Sequence record: MW314854.1
Source of the DNA: Mycobacterium phage phiGD24-3
DNA: 54,877 nucleotides
Reading direction: 5' to 3' (one strand)
Position 1 is the stretch's first letter; each line of letters opens with the position of its first letter. A program made the position numbers and the translations under genes. The notes beneath the pieces were generated by a model, which did not search any database, was not told the DNA's origin, and saw only the letters and a list, made by a program, of their open reading frames with translations. Below are positions 7,428 to 54,877 of this stretch, in pieces.

Positions 7428-7499
7428 TGGGACCTAGCTTAGTTGGTAGAGCGCCCGCCTGAAAAGCGGGAGGCCCTGGTTCGAGTCCAGGGGTCGCAG
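7428..7499 (+). tRNA. tRNA-like, anticodon GAA (Phe); G3·G70 mismatch in acceptor stem
   Basis: manual cloverleaf: D-arm GCTT/GAGC, anticodon loop CTGAAAA, T-arm CCTGG-TTCGAGT-CCAGG. Confidence 0.5.
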
Positions 7500-7654
7500 C
7501 AGGAGATGCAACCCTTACCGGGGAATGCTGCATCATCGCGTGGGTGCCGGTAACACCGCGACGCGACGGAATGCTGGACCTGCATACCCGGCCTCACAGG
7601 TGACGGGGTGTAGCTATCCATCGCCTCTCGGTTGGGTCCGTTAAGCCCGCCTCT

Positions 7655-7739
7655 GGAAGGTATGCCCTCGGCTGGGGCAACCGGTCTTGAAAACCGGCAC
7701 ACAGTAACCATTCTGGGGGTTCGACACCTCTACCTTCCG
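7655..7739 (+). tRNA. class II tRNA-like, anticodon UGA (Ser) with 17-nt variable arm; A at position 8
   Basis: acceptor GGAAGGT/ACCTTCC perfect; anticodon stem CCGGT/ACCGG, loop CTTGAAA; T-loop TTCGACA. Confidence 0.45.
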
Positions 7740-7888
7740 CTCGTGGGATCTCCAGTCACCCTGACATTGAGATCATCTGTCCCAGCACCAAACGACTGAC
7801 GAAGCCCTGTGATGGGTAGAAACACCCTCCAGGTGTCTCGTGGAGTCCGCACCGCTGGGGAATAACTGCGGACCTAGGGGTGACAACT

Positions 7889-8058: not shown

Positions 8059-8134
8059 TGGAACATAGCTCAGCTGGTAGAGCACCCGTCTGAAAAGCGG
8101 GAAGTCCCTGGTTCGACCCCAGGTGTTCCAGCCA
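8059..8134 (+). tRNA. tRNA, anticodon GAA (Phe), encoded CCA
   Basis: perfect cloverleaf: TGGAACA/TGTTCCA acceptor, loop CTGAAAA, T-arm CCTGG-TTCGACC-CCAGG, GCCA 3' end. Confidence 0.8.
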
Positions 8135-24072: not shown

Positions 24073-25818
24073 ATGTCGATCCGATCCAAAGAGGATGCTC
24101 AATTCCTGTGGGACCGGGTCATGGAGTCCCGCCGCTGGCGCGAGAAGCAACGTCTAAAGCCCGTCCTCACCCGTCTCTACGACGGTGACTTTGACCTCCG
24201 GGGTGTAGTCGCCGGGGAGCGTAAGGGCGAGTTCGAGTTTATCGACAACGACACCGGCACAGCGTCTTTGCAGCTGTCCCTAGACCACTATCTAGCCAAA
24301 TGGGTAATGGACTTCCGGGGCCGAGCCAAGCGCAACGTCCACGTGACCTTCGACAAGCAAGGTGCCCGGTGGTCGGGCCGGATGGAGTCCTACCGCGTTG
24401 TCCGTGAAGAGTCCGGTGACTGCTACCTAGAGATCACGTTCCTTCACGACATCGAAGAACTCAAGCACATGTACTGCTGGGCTAACCCGTTCCTGCGGCC
24501 TGAGTTCCAGTTCCCGAAGATGTGGGTGATCTTCGGACCCGCGAAGTGGTGCTTGCTAGTCACGTTGTTCGTCAACCTATTCCGGTTGGAGACGTCGTGG
24601 CTCACGCTGCCTGACAATCCGCTAGATCCTACAGAGTGGATGGGTCTGTCGTTCCTACCGTCGAACTGGCGGAACATCTGTTCCCCGTTGGACCTTCTGG
24701 ACGATAACTCCAACCTGGCAATCGTCTTCTCCCGGTTCAAGTCGATGTTCGACGTCGCCAAACGGGTGATGGAAGACGCTCAGCTGTCGTGGGTACCTCG
24801 TCGGTACCTGAAGGGTGAAGACCCACATCCGTTCGCGCACAAGTACGGTGGGATTCTCAACGAGACAACCTTCCCGCTACGTAACGGCTGTCTGGTCTGG
24901 GACATCGAAGACAAGTCCGGGTGGGGTACCGAGACCGCTTTCGGCGGTTCGATACTCGTCGGTCTGGTCCGTGCGATCGTCAACATCGCATCGGATGGCA
25001 CAACCGAAGGTGTTGAGGTCTACCACGGTGACCCGACCTACCCCGGCGAGTACTACGTTCCGTGGTTCCTCGGGACCAACCCGAAGGCACCCCACGTCGT
25101 CTACCAAGAGGGTCCGCTAACCGGTATCAAGTCCTCGGAGTTCAAGTACTACGAGGCTACCGACACGTCGTTCCTAACCGGTGGGCAGTCAATGCCTGGC
25201 GTAAATGAAGAGATCTCAGCGGTTATTCAGATGGGTGGAGACCTACTGGCAGCGCATATTTCGGCTGCCATCGAAGTTCAGCTTCCGCCTATTGGTGGTG
25301 CGATCGACGCTATCGCTAACCCGATTTACTCGGACACGATCCTCGCGTTCATGGAGATCCCGACCCTACGGGCTATGGAACTCTCGCTACCTCTTCCGGG
25401 GTTGGAGAACGCCATCACCGGGCTTGGAGATTTCCACTACTACGAGGGCTGGGCAGACGGCGCGGACAAAGCGTTCACGCTCTCCGCGATTATGGCGATA
25501 CGGGCGAAGATCTGGGCGACCAGGGCTCACACGTCGCACACGCTTAAGATCTCGGACGCAGCCCCGTACTACATCGGGGCACCCGGCTACGGTCACTTCT
25601 GGCTCGGAGACCGTATCGGTACAACGGTTCTCGGTTTCCCTGACCCGTACACGATATTTGTCGAACGTGTATCCAAGATCAGCTACTCATGGGGTGCAGA
25701 CGGCCCTAAGGGTTGGGAGATCGAAGTCGGATACCGCGAACCACAAGATCCGATGCTCAAGGCGTTCGAGATGATCCGCGACATTAACTCGTCGCTGGGT
25801 GACCTAGGCGTTCTGTAA
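24073..25818 (+). CDS. minor tail protein
   Basis: size and position. Confidence 0.8.
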   Translation: MSIRSKEDAQFLWDRVMESRRWREKQRLKPVLTRLYDGDFDLRGVVAGERKGEFEFIDNDTGTASLQLSLDHYLAKWVMDFRGRAKRNVHVTFDKQGARWSGRMESYRVVREESGDCYLEITFLHDIEELKHMYCWANPFLRPEFQFPKMWVIFGPAKWCLLVTLFVNLFRLETSWLTLPDNPLDPTEWMGLSFLPSNWRNICSPLDLLDDNSNLAIVFSRFKSMFDVAKRVMEDAQLSWVPRRYLKGEDPHPFAHKYGGILNETTFPLRNGCLVWDIEDKSGWGTETAFGGSILVGLVRAIVNIASDGTTEGVEVYHGDPTYPGEYYVPWFLGTNPKAPHVVYQEGPLTGIKSSEFKYYEATDTSFLTGGQSMPGVNEEISAVIQMGGDLLAAHISAAIEVQLPPIGGAIDAIANPIYSDTILAFMEIPTLRAMELSLPLPGLENAITGLGDFHYYEGWADGADKAFTLSAIMAIRAKIWATRAHTSHTLKISDAAPYYIGAPGYGHFWLGDRIGTTVLGFPDPYTIFVERVSKISYSWGADGPKGWEIEVGYREPQDPMLKAFEMIRDINSSLGDLGVL

Positions 25819-47912: not shown

Positions 47913-48416
47913 CTAGGGTTCGCGTGGCGGAAATTTCCATATCTGTTCTCCGTATTCAGTTATGTGAGTGTGTTCGTTCACGCGAATCATCAGACCCTTA
48001 TCACGCGGCTCTCTCGGCCTGTAAGCAAACCCTCCTGGCTTGCATACCCCTGGGTCAGACGGGATTTCCGGGTCGTACTCAACAACCAGGTTCTCGTCCC
48101 TAAGTTTCTTGTAGAACGACCGTAACTTGCTGCGTCGACGTTCGGTAAAACGGTCGCTGCCTTGCATCATGTGCTCGGCGTGGTCTCGCAGCAGCGCTAG
48201 TGGCTGTGCCCGGTTGAATTTCTCCGGCACCGCGAACGGAAGAGCCTCGGCCACACGCTGCCGTATGGCGGGCGTTCCGTCGTACTTCCTCCATAGGTAC
48301 GAAACTGCCTGGCGGGTGACCCCGAACATCTCCGCAATTTGGCTGTGGTTGTACCCTTCATTTTTCAGTTGTCGAATGATCCCTATGGTCAAACCGGATG
48401 CATATGTTTCGTCCAT
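47913..48416 (-). CDS. immunity repressor (L5 gp71-like, HTH)
   Basis: HTH 'SQIAEMFGVTRQAVSYLW'; 'LRDHAEHM' and 'IRVNEHTHIT' match the recalled L5 gp71 pattern. Confidence 0.85.
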   Translation of the reverse strand: MDETYASGLTIGIIRQLKNEGYNHSQIAEMFGVTRQAVSYLWRKYDGTPAIRQRVAEALPFAVPEKFNRAQPLALLRDHAEHMMQGSDRFTERRRSKLRSFYKKLRDENLVVEYDPEIPSDPGVCKPGGFAYRPREPRDKGLMIRVNEHTHITEYGEQIWKFPPREP

Positions 48417-50556: not shown

Positions 50557-50780
50557 TCGAATATCCTTTCCAACGTCGCGTATCCTGCGAATCCCATTGT
50601 CGGACAGACGAACCACCACGTGGTTTTGTTCTCGTCGTGGTGTTTGATGTCCATCCGATACGAGTTGTCAGCCGCGTAAGCGGCTGCCATACCTACACCC
50701 TGGTCCCAGTTGGACGGGTATTCGGTGGTGTCGTGGCCGGTGATGACGTTCGATACCGTCAGCCGGTAGAACGTGGTCAC
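50553..50780 (-). CDS. hypothetical protein
   Basis: ATGA coupling. Confidence 0.5.
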   Translation of the reverse strand: MTTFYRLTVSNVITGHDTTEYPSNWDQGVGMAAAYAADNSYRMDIKHHDENKTTWWFVCPTMGFAGYATLERIFE

Positions 50781-51052
50781 AACCGAGCCTCGTAGTACAC
50801 GTCCTCAGGACGTACACCACAACGATCACACGATCCACCATTCCGTTGCCCGTATGCGTATTCGTCCTTGACAAGATCACGGTGGTGTCCACAGAAGGCC
50901 ACTACATGGTTTTCGCAGGGGTATACGAAGTGCACCCGCATAACCCACTCCGCCTCCGACGCACAAGGACCCCCTTCCTCGGCCCATTCGCAGACACGTG
51001 CGGGCATGTCCCCCACGATGCTCTCAACATCGACTACCGACATCGTTGTCAT
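50777..51052 (-). CDS. Cys/His-rich (zinc-binding?) protein
   Basis: RBS TAAGGAG. Confidence 0.55.
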   Translation of the reverse strand: MTTMSVVDVESIVGDMPARVCEWAEEGGPCASEAEWVMRVHFVYPCENHVVAFCGHHRDLVKDEYAYGQRNGGSCDRCGVRPEDVYYEARL

Positions 51053-51085: not shown

Positions 51086-51172
51086 TGGTGCCCCCGGCGC
51101 GAATCGAACGCGCCACACACAGCGACTCCGGGAGTTCATACGCCTCCGGGGGAGCGTGTAACCGTTGGGGGC
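51086..51172 (-). ncRNA. tRNA-like element: perfect T-arm (GCGCG-TTCGATT-CGCGC), GC acceptor helix, encoded CCA; non-canonical 5' half
   Basis: minus strand reads ...GGCGCGTTCGATTCGCGCCGGGGGCACCA; 5' GCCCCCA pairs with 3' CGGGGGC. Confidence 0.4.
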
Positions 51173-51295
51173 GGTCTGGTTTCGACATGAGCGATAGCTC
51201 ATGCCTTTTATCGTGGGTGGTTAGAGTTGTGGCTCAAACCAAATCCAAAGCCAGCCGTCATCACCGTCGTCGTCCCGCTCCCTCATAGTCCTAGT

Positions 51296-53369: not shown

Positions 53370-53746
53370 CAGAACACCACGCCGCCCGTGAAAGCCTTGC
53401 AAATTCCCAGCTCGTCGTGGTCACGCAGAAGCAGCTCAAGTGTCTCTGCCATCTCCCTAGGGACATAGCGCAGCTCTGATCCGATGCGGACCTCGATCAA
53501 GTCTGCACGCCGTTCTGCCGCAAAGCGGCGCTCCTCTTCCGCTTGGTGGCAACTCACCTGAAAGTCACCCTCTACGAATTGGTGGCGTGGGATGGCTACT
53601 TGATTGCCGTACTGGTTGCTGATCGCCACGGCGTTATGACGATTGACCCGTAATACCCGGAAGGTCTCACCGCTGTGTGTATTACGCACGGTGTCACCGG
53701 CAGCGACGACTTGGTCAACGCCTTTACCCGCCCAGTAATCATTCAT
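53369..53746 (-). CDS. hypothetical protein (125 aa)
   Basis: first sizeable ORF downstream of the right-end promoters. Confidence 0.6.
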   Translation of the reverse strand: MNDYWAGKGVDQVVAAGDTVRNTHSGETFRVLRVNRHNAVAISNQYGNQVAIPRHQFVEGDFQVSCHQAEEERRFAAERRADLIEVRIGSELRYVPREMAETLELLLRDHDELGICKAFTGGVVF

Positions 53747-54174
53747 CTATCTAGTCCTTATCGGTAGTAGCTCAAATCTTCTAGTGCCACGTTTGGAGTC
53801 GAACCAAACCCCTACGGTCATATCGAGAGGGCGAACCTGCCGTGGCCGACCACCAGGCACACGCTGTATCTCAAGCGCAAGCCAAATGGCCTTAAAGTAT
53901 GTTCACGTCCGTATGTTTTCCTCGGCCCGTTTCCGTGGGTTAGACCGGTCACTGAAGGCTGACTAAACGCCACTCCCTCGCAGTCCGGTAGGTCTTGGCG
54001 ATGCCCGTCATCGCTCGCTACCGGAGATATCTTCTACGTACGCTATGTGTTATGACTTGGGGGGTATCACCAGGCTCGCTGGTTGACCATGCTCCGTGTC
54101 ACTTGTTATTCAGTTGTAGGCGCTTGAGGCATAGCCTCTGCGCTTTGCGTCGAGAACTATGTTCTCTAGCGATC

Positions 54175-54204
54175 AAACTATCAGATTGTGGGCCGTATGT
54201 CAAG
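54175..54204 (-). promoter_or_regulatory. candidate promoter: -35 TTGACA inside operator GGCCGTATGTCAAG (54191-54204), 17 bp, -10 TAGTTT
   Basis: read on the minus strand. Confidence 0.45.
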
Positions 54205-54290
54205 CCGTGTTGCTTGGCTCTATGCGCTCGCTCACCCGCTGGCGTATGGGTTTACTTGACGTTGTATGCCCGTTCTGAAGTTGTATCTGT

Positions 54291-54320
54291 ACTCTAACTC
54301 ATTGCCGGTCGTATGTCAAG
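54291..54320 (-). promoter_or_regulatory. candidate early promoter (Pleft-like): -35 TTGACA inside operator GGTCGTATGTCAAG (54307-54320), 17 bp, -10 TAGAGT
   Basis: read on the minus strand. Confidence 0.5.
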
Positions 54321-54415: not shown

Positions 54416-54443
54416 AAAAAAGGCCCTCCCCGAAGGGAGGGCC
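54416..54443 (-). terminator. intrinsic terminator for leftward transcription (GGCCCTCCC-cgaa-GGGAGGGCC + TTTTTT on minus strand)
   Basis: perfect 9-bp stem + U-tract. Confidence 0.75.
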
Positions 54444-54457
54444 GTTGGCGGTGGGGG

Positions 54458-54667
54458 TTATCGGTAGTTCTCCGATGTCACGTAGTACACCGCGCCTGTG
54501 TCGGGGTCGGTCCAGTTGCACGGTTTCCCGTCCGTATTCCCGTCCTCGTATTGGCATACGGGCAATTGGTCTGCGTGTGCTGTTGCTTCTACCGCAGTGG
54601 GCAGTCCTACCCAGAACGCACCAACGGTGAGTGTAGCGAGGGCCAGTTGCTTCCATGTGTTTGACAT
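54458..54667 (-). CDS. small secreted protein (69 aa; signal peptide, 2 Cys), probably leaderless
   Basis: 'MSNTWKQLALATLTVGAFWVGLPTAVEATAHA'; ATG at the predicted +1 of the promoter at 54674-54702. Confidence 0.55.
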   Translation of the reverse strand: MSNTWKQLALATLTVGAFWVGLPTAVEATAHADQLPVCQYEDGNTDGKPCNWTDPDTGAVYYVTSENYR

Positions 54668-54673
54668 ACGACC
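54660..54673 (+). promoter_or_regulatory. inverted operator-like site tTTGACATACGACC (13/14) overlapping the start codon of the 69-aa gene
   Basis: reverse orientation relative to 54689-54702, forming a dyad. Confidence 0.6.
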
Positions 54674-54702
54674 ACTCTACTACGCACGGGCCGTATGTCA
54701 AG
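54674..54702 (-). promoter_or_regulatory. candidate promoter: -35 TTGACA inside operator GGCCGTATGTCAAG (54689-54702), 16 bp, -10 TAGAGT; +1 = A of ATG at 54667
   Basis: read on the minus strand. Confidence 0.5.
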
Positions 54703-54877
54703 TGGTGCGTGCATACGAATGTGGACACCACGCACACACGCATGCACATACATAAGCGTGGGTGGGTAGCACGGTGCACACCACCGTGCACGGGCACGGC
54801 TCGGTCGGCAGCGCAGCTGCCCCACCCGGCACCCCAGGGGGGACACCCCTCCCCCGGCCCCCAGGATCGGGCGGTAA

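What the first reader, a model, noticed from the sequence alone, without database searches (positions are those of the whole stretch)
54416..54702. Repressor-controlled, leaderless, terminator-bounded secreted-peptide cassette at the right end
Two operator copies in inverted orientation (54660-54673 and 54689-54702) flank a promoter built as TTGACA-16 bp-TAGAGT. Its predicted +1 is the A of the ATG at 54667, giving a leaderless ORF. The 69-aa product has a clear signal peptide and a 38-aa Cys-containing mature part. A perfect rho-independent terminator (54416-54443) follows. A self-contained, tightly operator-clamped secreted-peptide unit is an unusual first transcription unit of the early arm.
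Basis: partly seen in the sequence, partly recalled or inferred. Interest (0 to 1): 0.75.

Follow-up and report, generated by a model that had tools for sequence, protein, structure and literature searches.

The report
Repressor-clamped early promoter, leaderless exported peptide
This is the early lytic promoter at the right end of a Mycobacterium abscessus temperate phage, held shut by two copies of the phage repressor's binding site and driving a small exported protein; the control system was already published for this phage group, so the novelty lies only in the details.

Summary
The window is a Cluster MabJ (Cluster A-like) M. abscessus phage, and its length equals that of phiGD24-3. The two "operators" are 2 of 12 copies of the published MabJ stoperator, and the promoter is the published "Pleft". 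New here: (i) the inverted site over +1/ATG covaries in its specificity half with the repressor class across relatives, so it is very probably a real second operator. (ii) The ATG lies 7 nt after the -10 in all 19 alleles and has no Shine-Dalgarno, so a leaderless mRNA is likely. (iii) The ORF is a real gene (pN/pS 0.15-0.3) with an AXA signal peptide and a 37-aa acidic two-Cys domain, and some alleles carry a different mature domain. (iv) The terminator is real but present in only some alleles. (v) None of 10 reference Cluster A-type right ends has this layout. It looks like an extra module upstream of the unit matching L5's Pleft non-coding RNA. The peptide's function is unknown. In passing I found a covariation-supported tRNA-like RNA (53846-53786), conserved in several Cluster A-type phages. 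In L5 its 3' end coincides with the unexplained 3' end of the abundant Pleft RNA.

The parts
54689..54702 (-). Operator 1. Reads CTTGACATACGGCC on the transcribed strand, in the same orientation as all other stoperators. Contains the -35 hexamer TTGACA (54701-54696).
   Evidence: Matches the published MabJ consensus cTTgACATACGaCC (PMC9934374).
54674..54679 (-). The -10 hexamer TAGAGT (TANNNT type), 16 nt after the -35.
   Evidence: 10 of 12 consensus matches. The 16-nt spacing and the TANNNT form are kept in all 19 alleles, as TAGAGT, TAGGCT, TAGGGT or TAGTGT.
54660..54673 (+). Operator 2. Reads TTTGACATACGACC on the plus strand, inverted relative to transcription. It is a perfect 13-bp core and covers positions -6 to +8, including the ATG.
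   Evidence: Its specificity half (GGTCGT, TGTGGT or GGTGGT) covaries with each phage's own stoperator family. It is the only site of 12 in the reverse orientation.
54667..54667 (-). Predicted transcription start, which is the A of the ATG (leaderless mRNA).
   Evidence: It lies 7 nt after the -10 in all 19 alleles. No SD-like 4-mer lies upstream, whereas 57 of 82 CDS in prophiT49-3 have one. Not measured experimentally.
54458..54667 (-). Gene for a 69-aa pre-protein (stop codon included).
   Evidence: Annotated as a hypothetical protein in prophiBWHA-1 gene 55 and prophiT49-3 gene 57. pN/pS is 0.15-0.31 at pS up to 0.59. Matches PHROGs 12613 and 37186.
54572..54667 (-). Signal peptide, codons 1-32 (MSNTWKQLALATLTVGAFWVGLPTAVEATAHA). 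n-region with K6, hydrophobic core 7-23, AXA at 30-32.
   Evidence: Hydropathy. The AXA directly before D/Q is kept through two different 2-aa deletions. SignalP was not available.
54461..54571 (-). Mature 37-aa acidic two-Cys domain (DQLPVCQYEDGNTDGKPCNWTDPDTGAVYYVTSENYR).
   Evidence: Conserved motif C..EDGNTDG.PC.WTDPDTG..YYV.S.NYR. Homologs occur in 60 phage records. All examined homologs carry it behind a hydrophobic N-terminus. AF2 pLDDT is 70-86 with a beta-hairpin.
54416..54443 (-). Intrinsic terminator: 9-bp stem (8 G-C pairs), UUCG loop, U6 tail, starting 14 nt after the stop codon.
   Evidence: Identical in L005 and L010. Other alleles have a different terminator or none.
54291..54320 (-). 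Second stoperator-plus-promoter module (P2): site 54320-54307, TTGACA 54319-54314, 17-nt spacer, TAGAGT 54296-54291, predicted start near 54284.
   Evidence: The block 54321-54175 is conserved in most relatives.
54175..54204 (-). Third stoperator with a possible promoter (P3): site 54204-54191, TTGACA 54203-54198, 17-nt spacer, TAGTTT 54180-54175.
   Evidence: The -10 is weak and was not called by the scan.
53786..53846 (-). Conserved 61-nt tRNA-like cloverleaf RNA closing the ~500-nt non-coding stretch, 40 nt upstream of the next gene (ATG at 53746).
   Evidence: Pairing is 99.2% against 35-53% in slid controls, and 13 of 20 pairs change on both sides.
47913..48416 (-). Immunity repressor gene, the trans-acting partner of the operators.
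   Evidence: 53% identical to prophiT49-3 gp41. E = 3e-34 to PDB 7R6R, the monomeric Cluster A repressor. 99.4% identical to prophiGD43A-4 gp39, and relatives occur in 1,143 phage records.

Best explanation
This is the cos-proximal early lytic promoter of a Cluster MabJ (Cluster A-like) temperate mycobacteriophage.

Lysogen state (inferred): monomers of the phage immunity repressor, encoded at 47913-48416, occupy two copies of its asymmetric 13-14-bp site. One copy overlaps the -35. The other is inverted and covers the region from just after the -10 to +8, including the start codon. Together they block initiation.

Infection or induction (inferred): host SigA RNA polymerase starts at the A of the ATG at 54667. 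The resulting leaderless mRNA is translated directly. The 69-aa product is exported by Sec and cut after Ala32. This releases, or leaves anchored, a 37-aa acidic, probably disulfide-bonded mini-domain in the cell envelope. In this genome most transcripts then stop at the strong terminator at 54443-54416. The rest of the early arm is served by a second, equally good stoperator-overlapped promoter 96 nt further on (P2), which heads a ~500-nt non-coding RNA ending in a tRNA-like structure.

Shown: the sequence anatomy, the site family, repressor homology, operator covariation, gene conservation and purifying selection, the signal-peptide features, and the terminator fold.

Inferred: repressor occupancy, the exact start site, export and cleavage, and termination efficiency.

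The peptide's role is unknown. My best guess, with low confidence, is an envelope-acting early function such as exclusion of superinfecting phage or receptor/envelope modification, possibly metal-binding through its DGNTDG and DPDTG loops.
For: - Site family: 12 copies of the core against about 1 expected by chance. Eleven are co-oriented with transcription.
- Repressor homolog.
- Published description of the stoperators and Pleft in MabJ prophages: PMC9934374.
- Promoter called by an independent scan.
- Across 19 distinct alleles from M. abscessus and M. chelonae prophages the geometry -35, 16 nt, TANNNT, 6 nt, ATG never changes. The 6 non-coding bases before the ATG always equal that phage's own stoperator half-site: GGTCGT, TGTGGT or GGTGGT.
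- Reversed sites do not block elongation in L5 (Brown et al., cited in PMC9283540). An inverted site at +1 therefore makes sense only as an initiation operator.
- No SD-like motif upstream, against 70% of other genes in this phage group.
- pN/pS of 0.15-0.31.
- AXA is preserved through indels.
- Distant homologs with unrelated N-termini are all hydrophobic at the N-terminus, with the two-Cys domain C-terminal.
- Terminator energy of -22 kcal/mol followed by U6.
Against: - No transcript, footprint or secretion data exist for any MabJ phage in the searched literature.
- Operator 2 carries one mismatch to the 14-mer in this phage. In the other classes it has a mismatch inside the TTGACA core (TTGTCA). 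Binding strength is therefore unknown.
- The covariation rests on only three specificity states.
- Operator 2's first codons are also constrained as coding sequence.
- SignalP was not available. Some distant homologs lack an obvious AXA and may be membrane-anchored rather than released.
- The terminator is missing from about half of the alleles, so it is not part of a conserved design.
- Pfam and the fold search gave no functional clue.
Confidence: 0.75

Rival explanations
1. Only the -35 site is a working operator. The inverted copy over the ATG is a by-product, either a remnant of stoperator-mediated recombination or a sequence kept only because it supplies the start codon and first codons. 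It does not bind repressor usefully.
For: It always has at least one mismatch, and in three of the four allele groups the mismatch lies in the TTGACA core. L5's mapped Pleft works with a single operator at -35. Recombination between stoperators is frequent (PMC5712189).
Against: The six bases upstream of the ATG are non-coding, yet they track each phage's own specificity half-site through four concerted substitutions. In the window the 13-bp core is perfect. PMC9934374 itself treats the reverse-oriented site as the operator.
Confidence: 0.15
2. Transcription starts a few bases away from the A of the ATG, or from an unrecognised promoter nearer cos. The mRNA then has a short leader and is translated conventionally or poorly.
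For: The start site is only predicted from -10 spacing. In L5 the mapped start is also 7 nt from the proposed -10, but -10 assignments in mycobacteria are loose.
Against: No SD-like motif exists upstream. The 7-nt distance is invariant in 19 alleles although the -10 sequence itself varies. Only about 175 bp separate the promoter from the genome end, and the scan found no other promoter-like site on this strand. From my own knowledge, leaderless A/GTG starts are common in mycobacteria.
Confidence: 0.2
3. The cassette is a lysogenic-conversion 'moron'. Under this reading it is an independent promoter-gene-terminator unit expressed from the prophage to alter the M. abscessus envelope.
For: It has its own promoter and, in this genome, its own terminator. 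It is an add-on absent from 10 reference Cluster A-type phages. Its cargo is swapped between relatives. The product is exported.
Against: The promoter is overlapped by two repressor sites, so it should be off in lysogens. M. abscessus lysogen RNA-seq found most prophage genes silent apart from the toxin-immunity cassettes near the attachment junctions, though MabJ was not shown specifically (PMC8092301).
Confidence: 0.07
4. The product is a phage communication pre-peptide of the arbitrium type. It would be secreted early, processed to a short signal and sensed by later infections.
For: It is a small signal-peptide-bearing product of the first early transcription unit of a temperate phage.
Against: The whole 37-aa domain is conserved, with two Cys and a predicted fold. 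The same domain is shared by phages with different repressor specificities, and by phages of other clusters and hosts. That is the opposite of a phage-specific signal. No receptor-like gene lies nearby.
Confidence: 0.04
5. [quoted passage not shown]
For: In L5, D29 and StarStuff the region downstream of Pleft is non-coding and makes an abundant stable RNA (PMC5712189).
Against: There is strong purifying selection on the reading frame. Protein-level homologs exist in 60 phage records and two PHROG families. Indels are in-frame and preserve AXA. The non-coding unit comparable to L5's lies further downstream.
Confidence: 0.03

Closest known systems
Pleft early lytic promoter and operator/stoperator system of mycobacteriophage L5 and other Cluster A phages (Brown et al. 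1997; Dedrick et al. 2017, PMC5712189; McGinnis et al. 2022, PMC9283540)
   Same: A homologous monomeric repressor (E = 3e-34 to PDB 7R6R). An asymmetric 13-14-bp site ending in TGTCAAG, so that its complement supplies the -35 TTGACA. Many co-oriented copies, dense near the right cos end. Leftward early transcription from the right end.
   Different: L5 has one operator at -35, no inverted site at +1 and no ORF at the start site. Its Pleft makes a ~500-nt non-coding RNA. Here a second inverted operator covers +1, and the transcript begins with a translated ATG.
Predicted Pleft and 14 repressor sites of MabJ prophage prophiT49-3 (Amarh et al. 2023, PMC9934374, Fig 8)
   Same: The same locus, consensus and promoter. 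My enumeration reproduces 14 sites, with #12 the only reverse-oriented one, lying over the start of gene 57.
   Different: The paper's text does not mention two sites at the promoter, the leaderless geometry, the exported product, the cargo swapping, the terminators or the downstream RNA element. I could not see its figures.
Leaderless mRNAs of mycobacteria (transcription start at the A/G of the start codon). This comparison rests on my own knowledge, not on a paper read here.
   Same: A -10 of TANNNT type 7 nt upstream of an ATG, with no Shine-Dalgarno.
   Different: The start codon is embedded in a repressor binding site, so the site that represses initiation also encodes the first codons.
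Phage 'morons' (autonomous promoter-gene-terminator insertions in temperate phage genomes). This comparison rests on my own knowledge.
   Same: An add-on unit with its own promoter and, in some alleles, its own terminator, lying between cos and the ancestral early unit, with variable cargo.
   Different: It is predicted to be repressed in the lysogen rather than expressed from the prophage.
For the side observation: tRNA-like RNAs processed by tRNA enzymes, namely mascRNA/MALAT1 (Rfam RF01684) and bacterial YrlA Y RNAs (PMC4201824)
   Same: A cloverleaf-like fold with a GGUUCGAnUCC-type T-arm and an acceptor-like stem, positioned at the end of a long abundant non-coding RNA.
   Different: The Rfam match is below threshold (17 bits against a gathering score of 42.5, E = 1.3). 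No Ro60-binding stem was examined. The published YrlA examples are in Ro60-encoding phages, not Cluster A.

Membership tests
Cluster A-type operator/stoperator immunity system | The phage encodes a homolog of the monomeric two-domain immunity repressor (L5 gp71 / TipsytheTRex) | tested here: met
   Window 47913-48416(-) gives E = 3e-34 to PDB 7R6R over residues 9-163. tblastn finds relatives annotated as immunity repressor in 1,143 phage records.
Cluster A-type operator/stoperator immunity system | Many copies of one asymmetric 13-14-bp site across the genome, in one orientation relative to transcription | tested here: met
   There are 12 copies of TTGACATACGRCC, and 11 are co-oriented with transcription in both arms. 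About 1 match is expected by chance.
Cluster A-type operator/stoperator immunity system | One site overlaps the -35 of a strong early promoter near the right cos end | tested here: met
   Site 54702-54689 contains TTGACA, about 175 bp from the right end.
Cluster A-type operator/stoperator immunity system | Repressor binds the sites and represses the promoter | not testable with these tools
   Only indirect support: the half-site covaries with repressor class.
Leaderless mRNA | The primary 5' end coincides with the first base of the start codon | not testable with these tools
   Predicted only. The A of the ATG is 7 nt after the -10 in 19 of 19 alleles.
Leaderless mRNA | No Shine-Dalgarno sequence upstream of the start codon | tested here: met
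   None of AGGA, GGAG, GAGG or AAGG occurs in -20..-4, whereas 57 of 82 annotated CDS of prophiT49-3 have one.
Sec signal peptide cleaved by signal peptidase I | A positively charged n-region, a hydrophobic core of about 15-20 residues, and small residues at -3 and -1 (AXA) | tested here: met
   K6, a core at 7-23 with mean hydropathy of 1.5-1.9, and A30-H31-A32. The AXA is kept next to D/Q through two different deletions. This was judged by inspection, with no dedicated predictor.
Sec signal peptide cleaved by signal peptidase I | Export and cleavage demonstrated | not testable with these tools
   Indirect support only. All homologs examined place the two-Cys domain behind a hydrophobic N-terminus.
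Lipoprotein signal peptide | A lipobox [LVI][ASTVI][GAS]C at the end of the hydrophobic core | tested here: not met
   The first Cys is residue 38 in LPVC, 15 residues beyond the core, with V at -1 (read directly from the sequence).
Intrinsic (rho-independent) terminator | A G+C-rich hairpin followed directly by a U-run on the transcribed strand | tested here: met
   A 9-bp stem with 8 G-C pairs, a UUCG loop and U6, at -22 kcal/mol.
Arbitrium-type communication peptide (AimP) | An adjacent receptor gene, and a short mature peptide that varies with phage specificity | tested here: not met
   The neighbouring ORFs have no Pfam or PHROG function. The 37-aa domain is conserved across phages of different repressor classes, clusters and hosts.
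Excalibur / DxDxDG calcium-binding domain | A match to the family profile (Pfam) | tested here: not met
   No Pfam family at E up to 1. Only a motif-level resemblance remains (DGNTDGKPC here, DDNNDGVIDEDE in the alternative cargo), recalled from memory.
Canonical tRNA (for the side element at 53846-53786) | Detected by tRNA finders or the Rfam tRNA model, with a 7-bp acceptor stem and a stable anticodon loop | tested here: not met
   ARAGORN at default settings finds none. Rfam gives no tRNA hit at E up to 10. The acceptor is 5-6 bp, and the 'anticodon' loop varies between close relatives as AUAUGAC, AUAUCAC or ACAUCAC.

The most novel reading that the evidence does not exclude
The promoter, double operator, leaderless start and signal peptide form a conserved 'early export platform'. 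MabJ-lineage phages plug different small Cys-containing, Asp-rich mini-domains into it. At least two unrelated cargoes are seen, plus a longer fusion. These would be the first phage products to reach the cell envelope after derepression, and could act as extracellular or envelope-level effectors (exclusion, receptor masking or signalling). That would be a class of early secreted phage effectors not yet described for mycobacteriophages.

Separately, the tRNA-like RNA found downstream may be the missing determinant of the 3' end and stability of the abundant, toxic Pleft RNA of Cluster A phages.
Probability: 0.12. Interest if true: 0.7.

Novelty: new variant of a known kind. Interest (0 to 1): 0.4.

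Why it matters
MabJ phages are resident prophages of clinical M. abscessus strains and are relatives of phages used therapeutically. Knowing exactly how their early promoter is shut (two operators rather than one) matters for engineering lytic derivatives and for predicting immunity groups. It also matters to know what the first product made after derepression is. A compact, tightly repressible, leaderless promoter with a built-in export signal is also a ready-made genetic tool for mycobacteria. The side observation gives a concrete, testable explanation for a question left open in the L5/D29 transcriptome work, namely how the 3' end of the abundant, toxic Pleft RNA is defined.

Tried and rejected
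- Pfam on both cargo variants: no family at E up to 1.
- AlphaFold2 gave only moderate confidence, with mature-domain pLDDT of 70-86. The Foldseek search against PDB gave nothing below E = 0.88. There is therefore no structural clue to function.
- The search for related loci in genome contigs with the family alignment: 43 pattern matches, none confirmed by tblastn, probably because the query is so short. I used a DNA pattern in viral contigs and exact-protein look-ups instead.
- Rfam on the region: only sub-threshold chance-level hits.
- Lipoprotein reading: rejected, no lipobox.
- Arbitrium reading: rejected on domain conservation and the lack of a receptor gene.
- Non-coding reading of the ORF: rejected on pN/pS.
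- Bxb1's right end could not be interpreted. Its record annotates genes 84-86 on the plus strand and its sites face the other way, so it was left out of the comparison.
- BabyRay and Bxb1 gave no convincing tRNA-like hit.
- Error of mine, corrected: row 1 of alignment A2 was a mis-typed window sequence below 53800, a stretch I had not yet read. My note that the window copy had T-stem substitutions was therefore wrong. Searches show the window copy is intact. Model R1 contains that bad row. Alignment A3 and model R2 were made from real sequences only.
- The identification of the window as phiGD24-3 rests on identical length (54,877 bp) and cluster only. The record is not in the searchable collection.
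Full report
**1. The observation**

Reading both strands confirms every coordinate in the finding.
- On the transcribed (minus) strand the sequence is CTTGACATACGGCC (54702-54689), with TTGACA at 54701-54696.
- A 16-nt spacer follows, then TAGAGT (54679-54674), then GGTCGT, then the ATG at 54667.
- On the plus strand, 54660-54673 reads TTTGACATACGACC. This is a second copy of the same motif in inverted orientation, and it spans the start codon.
- The ORF at 54667-54458 encodes 69 aa.
- Fourteen bases after the stop codon lies GGCCCTCCC-UUCG-GGGAGGGCC followed by U6 (54443-54416). Its centroid energy is -22.1 kcal/mol, and 1 of 200 shuffles folds as well.
- An independent consensus scan called this promoter with 10 of 12 matches.
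- The 11-mer core with up to one mismatch occurs 13 times in the window against about 1 expected, and 0 of 100 shuffles reached 13.

**2. What the genome is**

The right end matches only Mycobacterium abscessus prophages of Cluster MabJ: prophiBWHA-1, prophiGD43A-4, prophiT46-3 and prophiT49-3, at 94-97% identity. The window has the Cluster A layout: a rightward structural arm, an integrase, and a leftward early arm with DNA polymerase and ribonucleotide reductase. Its length of 54,877 bp equals that listed for phiGD24-3, a MabJ phage released spontaneously from strain GD24 (PMC8092298). That identification is inferred from length and cluster only.

**3. The operators are the published stoperators**

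PMC9934374 reports three things for MabJ prophages:
- They use a Cluster A-type system.
- prophiT49-3 has 14 sites with consensus 5'-cTTgACATACGaCC.
- A Pleft promoter lies near cos, with 'site #12' overlapping it and all other sites in the opposite orientation to #12.

My enumeration of prophiT49-3 gives exactly 14 sites. Number 12 (24431-24444) is the only reverse-oriented one, and it lies over the ATG of gene 57. That is the counterpart of window 54660-54673.

In the window there are 12 copies of the 13-bp core. Eleven are co-oriented with transcription in both arms. The exception is the site over the ATG.

The repressor gene is at 47913-48416 (minus strand). It is 53% identical to prophiT49-3 gp41 and 99.4% identical to prophiGD43A-4 gp39. 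It matches the crystallised monomeric Cluster A repressor (PDB 7R6R) at E = 3e-34.

**4. Is the inverted site a real operator?**

I collected 25 related loci, giving 19 distinct alleles, from M. abscessus and M. chelonae prophages. The geometry is invariant: TTGACA, 16 nt, TANNNT, 6 nt, ATG.

The phages fall into three repressor-specificity classes, judged from their other stoperators: GGYCGTATGTCAAG, TGTGGTGTGTCAAG and GGTGGTATGTCAAG. In each class the six non-coding bases between the -10 and the ATG equal that class's own half-site: GGTCGT, TGTGGT and GGTGGT. This concerted change is hard to explain unless the repressor reads that sequence.

The other half of the site carries one mismatch, either TGTCAAA or TGACAAG, so affinity is unknown. 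In L5, reversing a stoperator abolishes its block on elongation (Brown et al., cited in PMC9283540). A reversed site at +1 therefore makes sense as an initiation operator. L5's mapped Pleft has only the -35 site.

**5. Leaderless start**

The A of the ATG is 7 nt from the -10 in all alleles. No SD-like 4-mer lies upstream, whereas 57 of 82 annotated genes of prophiT49-3 have one. No other in-frame start would include the hydrophobic N-terminus (read directly from the sequence). The start site is a prediction, because no transcript data for MabJ phages were found.

**6. The gene and its product**

The ORF is annotated as a hypothetical protein in the relatives. Pairwise pN/pS is 0.15-0.31 with pS up to 0.59, so it is a translated gene under purifying selection.

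Residues 1-32 look like a Sec signal peptide: K6, a hydrophobic core at 7-23, and AXA at 30-32. Two different 2-aa deletions in relatives both keep an AXA directly before the mature N-terminus.

The mature 37 aa is acidic (7 D/E against 2 K/R). It carries the motif C..EDGNTDG.PC.WTDPDTG..YYV.S.NYR, matches PHROGs 12613 and 37186 of unknown function, and has no Pfam match.

tblastn finds the domain in 60 phage records from Mycobacterium and Gordonia hosts. There it is not the first early gene. All the homologs I examined place it behind an unrelated hydrophobic N-terminus. Together with the two conserved Cys, this supports an extracytoplasmic location.

AlphaFold2 models the domain as a small beta-hairpin unit with pLDDT of 70-86, and the fold search found nothing significant. 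The function remains unknown.

**7. A platform with swappable cargo, and a non-conserved terminator**

prophiGD43A-4, prophiT46-3 and several IMG/VR prophages keep the promoter and signal peptide but carry an unrelated mature part. This part matches PHROGs 1148 and 3471 and contains DDNNDGVIDEDE and two Cys. One allele has a longer fusion. Conversely, the window's mature domain also occurs behind a different signal peptide (P0008-P0010).

Downstream of the stop codon, the alleles show one of five states:
- this terminator;
- a different terminator (CCCCCGC-TACG-GCGGGGG-UUUUCUUU) abutting the next stoperator;
- a truncated terminator;
- a second gene;
- no terminator.

So 'terminator-bounded' describes this genome and not the design.

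**8. Place in the early arm**

Ninety-six bases beyond the terminator lies a second stoperator-overlapped promoter with identical hexamers: TTGACA, 17 nt, TAGAGT (54319-54291). A third site with a weaker -10 follows at 54204-54175. No convincing ORF lies between 54415 and the next gene, whose ATG is at 53746.

None of 10 reference Cluster A-type right ends has a leaderless ORF at a stoperator promoter. Those checked were L5, Peaches, Anthony, Rosalind, Che12, Trixie, Timshel, Harlequin, BabyRay and Stephig9.

The unit from P2 (predicted start near 54284) to the end of the RNA element described below is 499 nt. In L5, the mapped Pleft start (51,672) to the corresponding element's end (51,134) is 539 nt. 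I therefore read P2 and its non-coding RNA as the positional counterpart of L5's Pleft unit. The finding's cassette is then an extra module added between it and cos in the MabJ lineage. This reading is an inference.

**9. Side observation: a tRNA-like RNA**

The most conserved block of the non-coding stretch is a 61-nt element (53846-53786). It folds into a cloverleaf-like structure with four helices: a 5-bp acceptor-like stem, a short 5' hairpin, a middle hairpin with a 7-nt loop, and a 6-bp T-arm with a UUCGAnU loop.

A covariance model finds it in:
- all MabJ-type loci;
- Gordonia phage Rosalind (E = 5e-11);
- Peaches (1e-5);
- Anthony (5e-5);
- L5 (7e-3).

It also scores the window's own tRNA-Phe weakly.

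On the 20-sequence alignment, 99.2% of cells pair against 35-53% in slid controls. Thirteen of 20 pairs change on both sides, and all four helices are affected. The caveat is that the alignment was fitted to the model.

An iterated model and direct folding place analogous elements in L5 (51,226-51,134, with a mini copy at 50,478-50,418), Trixie, Timshel, Stephig9, Che12 and Rhodococcus phage Harlequin. They always lie on the early strand and are usually followed within 20 nt by a U-run or a stoperator.

It is not a canonical tRNA. ARAGORN at default settings and Rfam do not call it, and its 'anticodon' loop varies among close relatives.

In L5, PMC5712189 reports three relevant points:
- About 90% of Pleft transcripts end at 51,140-51,190.
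- No canonical terminator is evident there.
- The left edge of the abundant RNA peak is near 51,133.

The element's 3' end is at 51,134. I found no description of this element in the searchable literature, though that library is incomplete.

The hypothesis is that tRNA-processing enzymes, or the tRNA-like 3' structure itself, define and stabilise the end of the Pleft RNA.

**10. Verdict**

The regulatory system and the promoter are already published for this phage group, and the gene is already annotated.

New here are:
- the covariation evidence for a second, inverted operator over +1;
- the leaderless geometry in which the operator supplies the start codon;
- the exported two-Cys product with swappable cargo;
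- the recognition that this is a lineage-specific add-on upstream of the L5-type unit.

That makes it a new variant of a known kind and of moderate interest. The downstream tRNA-like element is probably the more consequential lead from this region.

Noticed in passing
window 53786-53846 (minus strand); also L5 51,134-51,226 and 50,418-50,478 (L007), Rosalind L030 4220-4295, Peaches L031 687-759, Anthony L029 2328-2394, Timshel L034 2030-2105, Stephig9 L037 1727-1806, Harlequin L035 1690-1761: A conserved tRNA-like cloverleaf RNA with an acceptor-like stem and a GGUUCGAnUCC-type T-arm sits at the end of the ~500-nt non-coding stretch downstream of the early promoters. Covariation is strong: 13 of 20 pairs change on both sides, and pairing is 99% against 35-53% in slid controls. 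In L5 its 3' end (51,134) coincides with the unexplained 3' end of the abundant, toxic Pleft RNA. ARAGORN at default settings and Rfam do not call it, and I found no description in the searched literature.
   Followed up: partly
window 54291-54320 and 54175-54204 (minus strand): Two further stoperator sites each supply a TTGACA -35 with a 17-nt spacer to a TANNNT hexamer (TAGAGT and TAGTTT). The right end may therefore carry three tandem repressor-controlled early promoters. The block is conserved in most relatives, but the second module is replaced in prophiT49-3, L013 and L016.
   Followed up: partly
loci L013 and L026, compared with window 54416-54443 and with L001/L002: Some alleles break off in the middle of a terminator hairpin and continue with the same unrelated sequence (ACGCTCGTATCGGAGATACGCGCTACCAAGCG). 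This suggests that recombination junctions between early-region modules fall inside terminators as well as at stoperators.
   Followed up: no
alleles in L002, L009, L013, L017 (the gene at the position of window 54458-54667): The alternative cargo behind the same signal peptide contains DDNNDGVIDEDE, which from memory fits an EF-hand/dockerin-type DxNxDGxIDxxE loop, plus two Cys. The window's cargo has DGNTDGKPC and DPDTG. Both cargoes may be small metal-binding modules, but neither has a Pfam match.
   Followed up: partly
window 54703-54877: The ~175 bp between the promoter and the right genome end is rich in alternating GT/GC runs (GCGTGTGTGCGTGG) and in GTGCAC palindromes (GTGCACACCACCGTGCAC). 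It ends in ...CGGGCGGTAA, which resembles Cluster A cos ends. prophiT49-3 has an extra stoperator-like site in this stretch (24696-24709) that the window lacks.
   Followed up: no
window 7428-7500, 7655-7740, 8059-8134: Three tRNA genes lie in the left arm: two tRNA-Phe(gaa) and one tRNA-Ser(tga). prophiT49-3 instead carries tRNA-Trp and tRNA-Leu at the corresponding place.
   Followed up: no
L029 (Mycobacterium phage Anthony) 2207-2362, record 50706-50861: Annotated gene 91 (51 aa) overlaps the tRNA-like element hit (record 50827-50893). It may be a mis-called ORF over a structured RNA.
   Followed up: no
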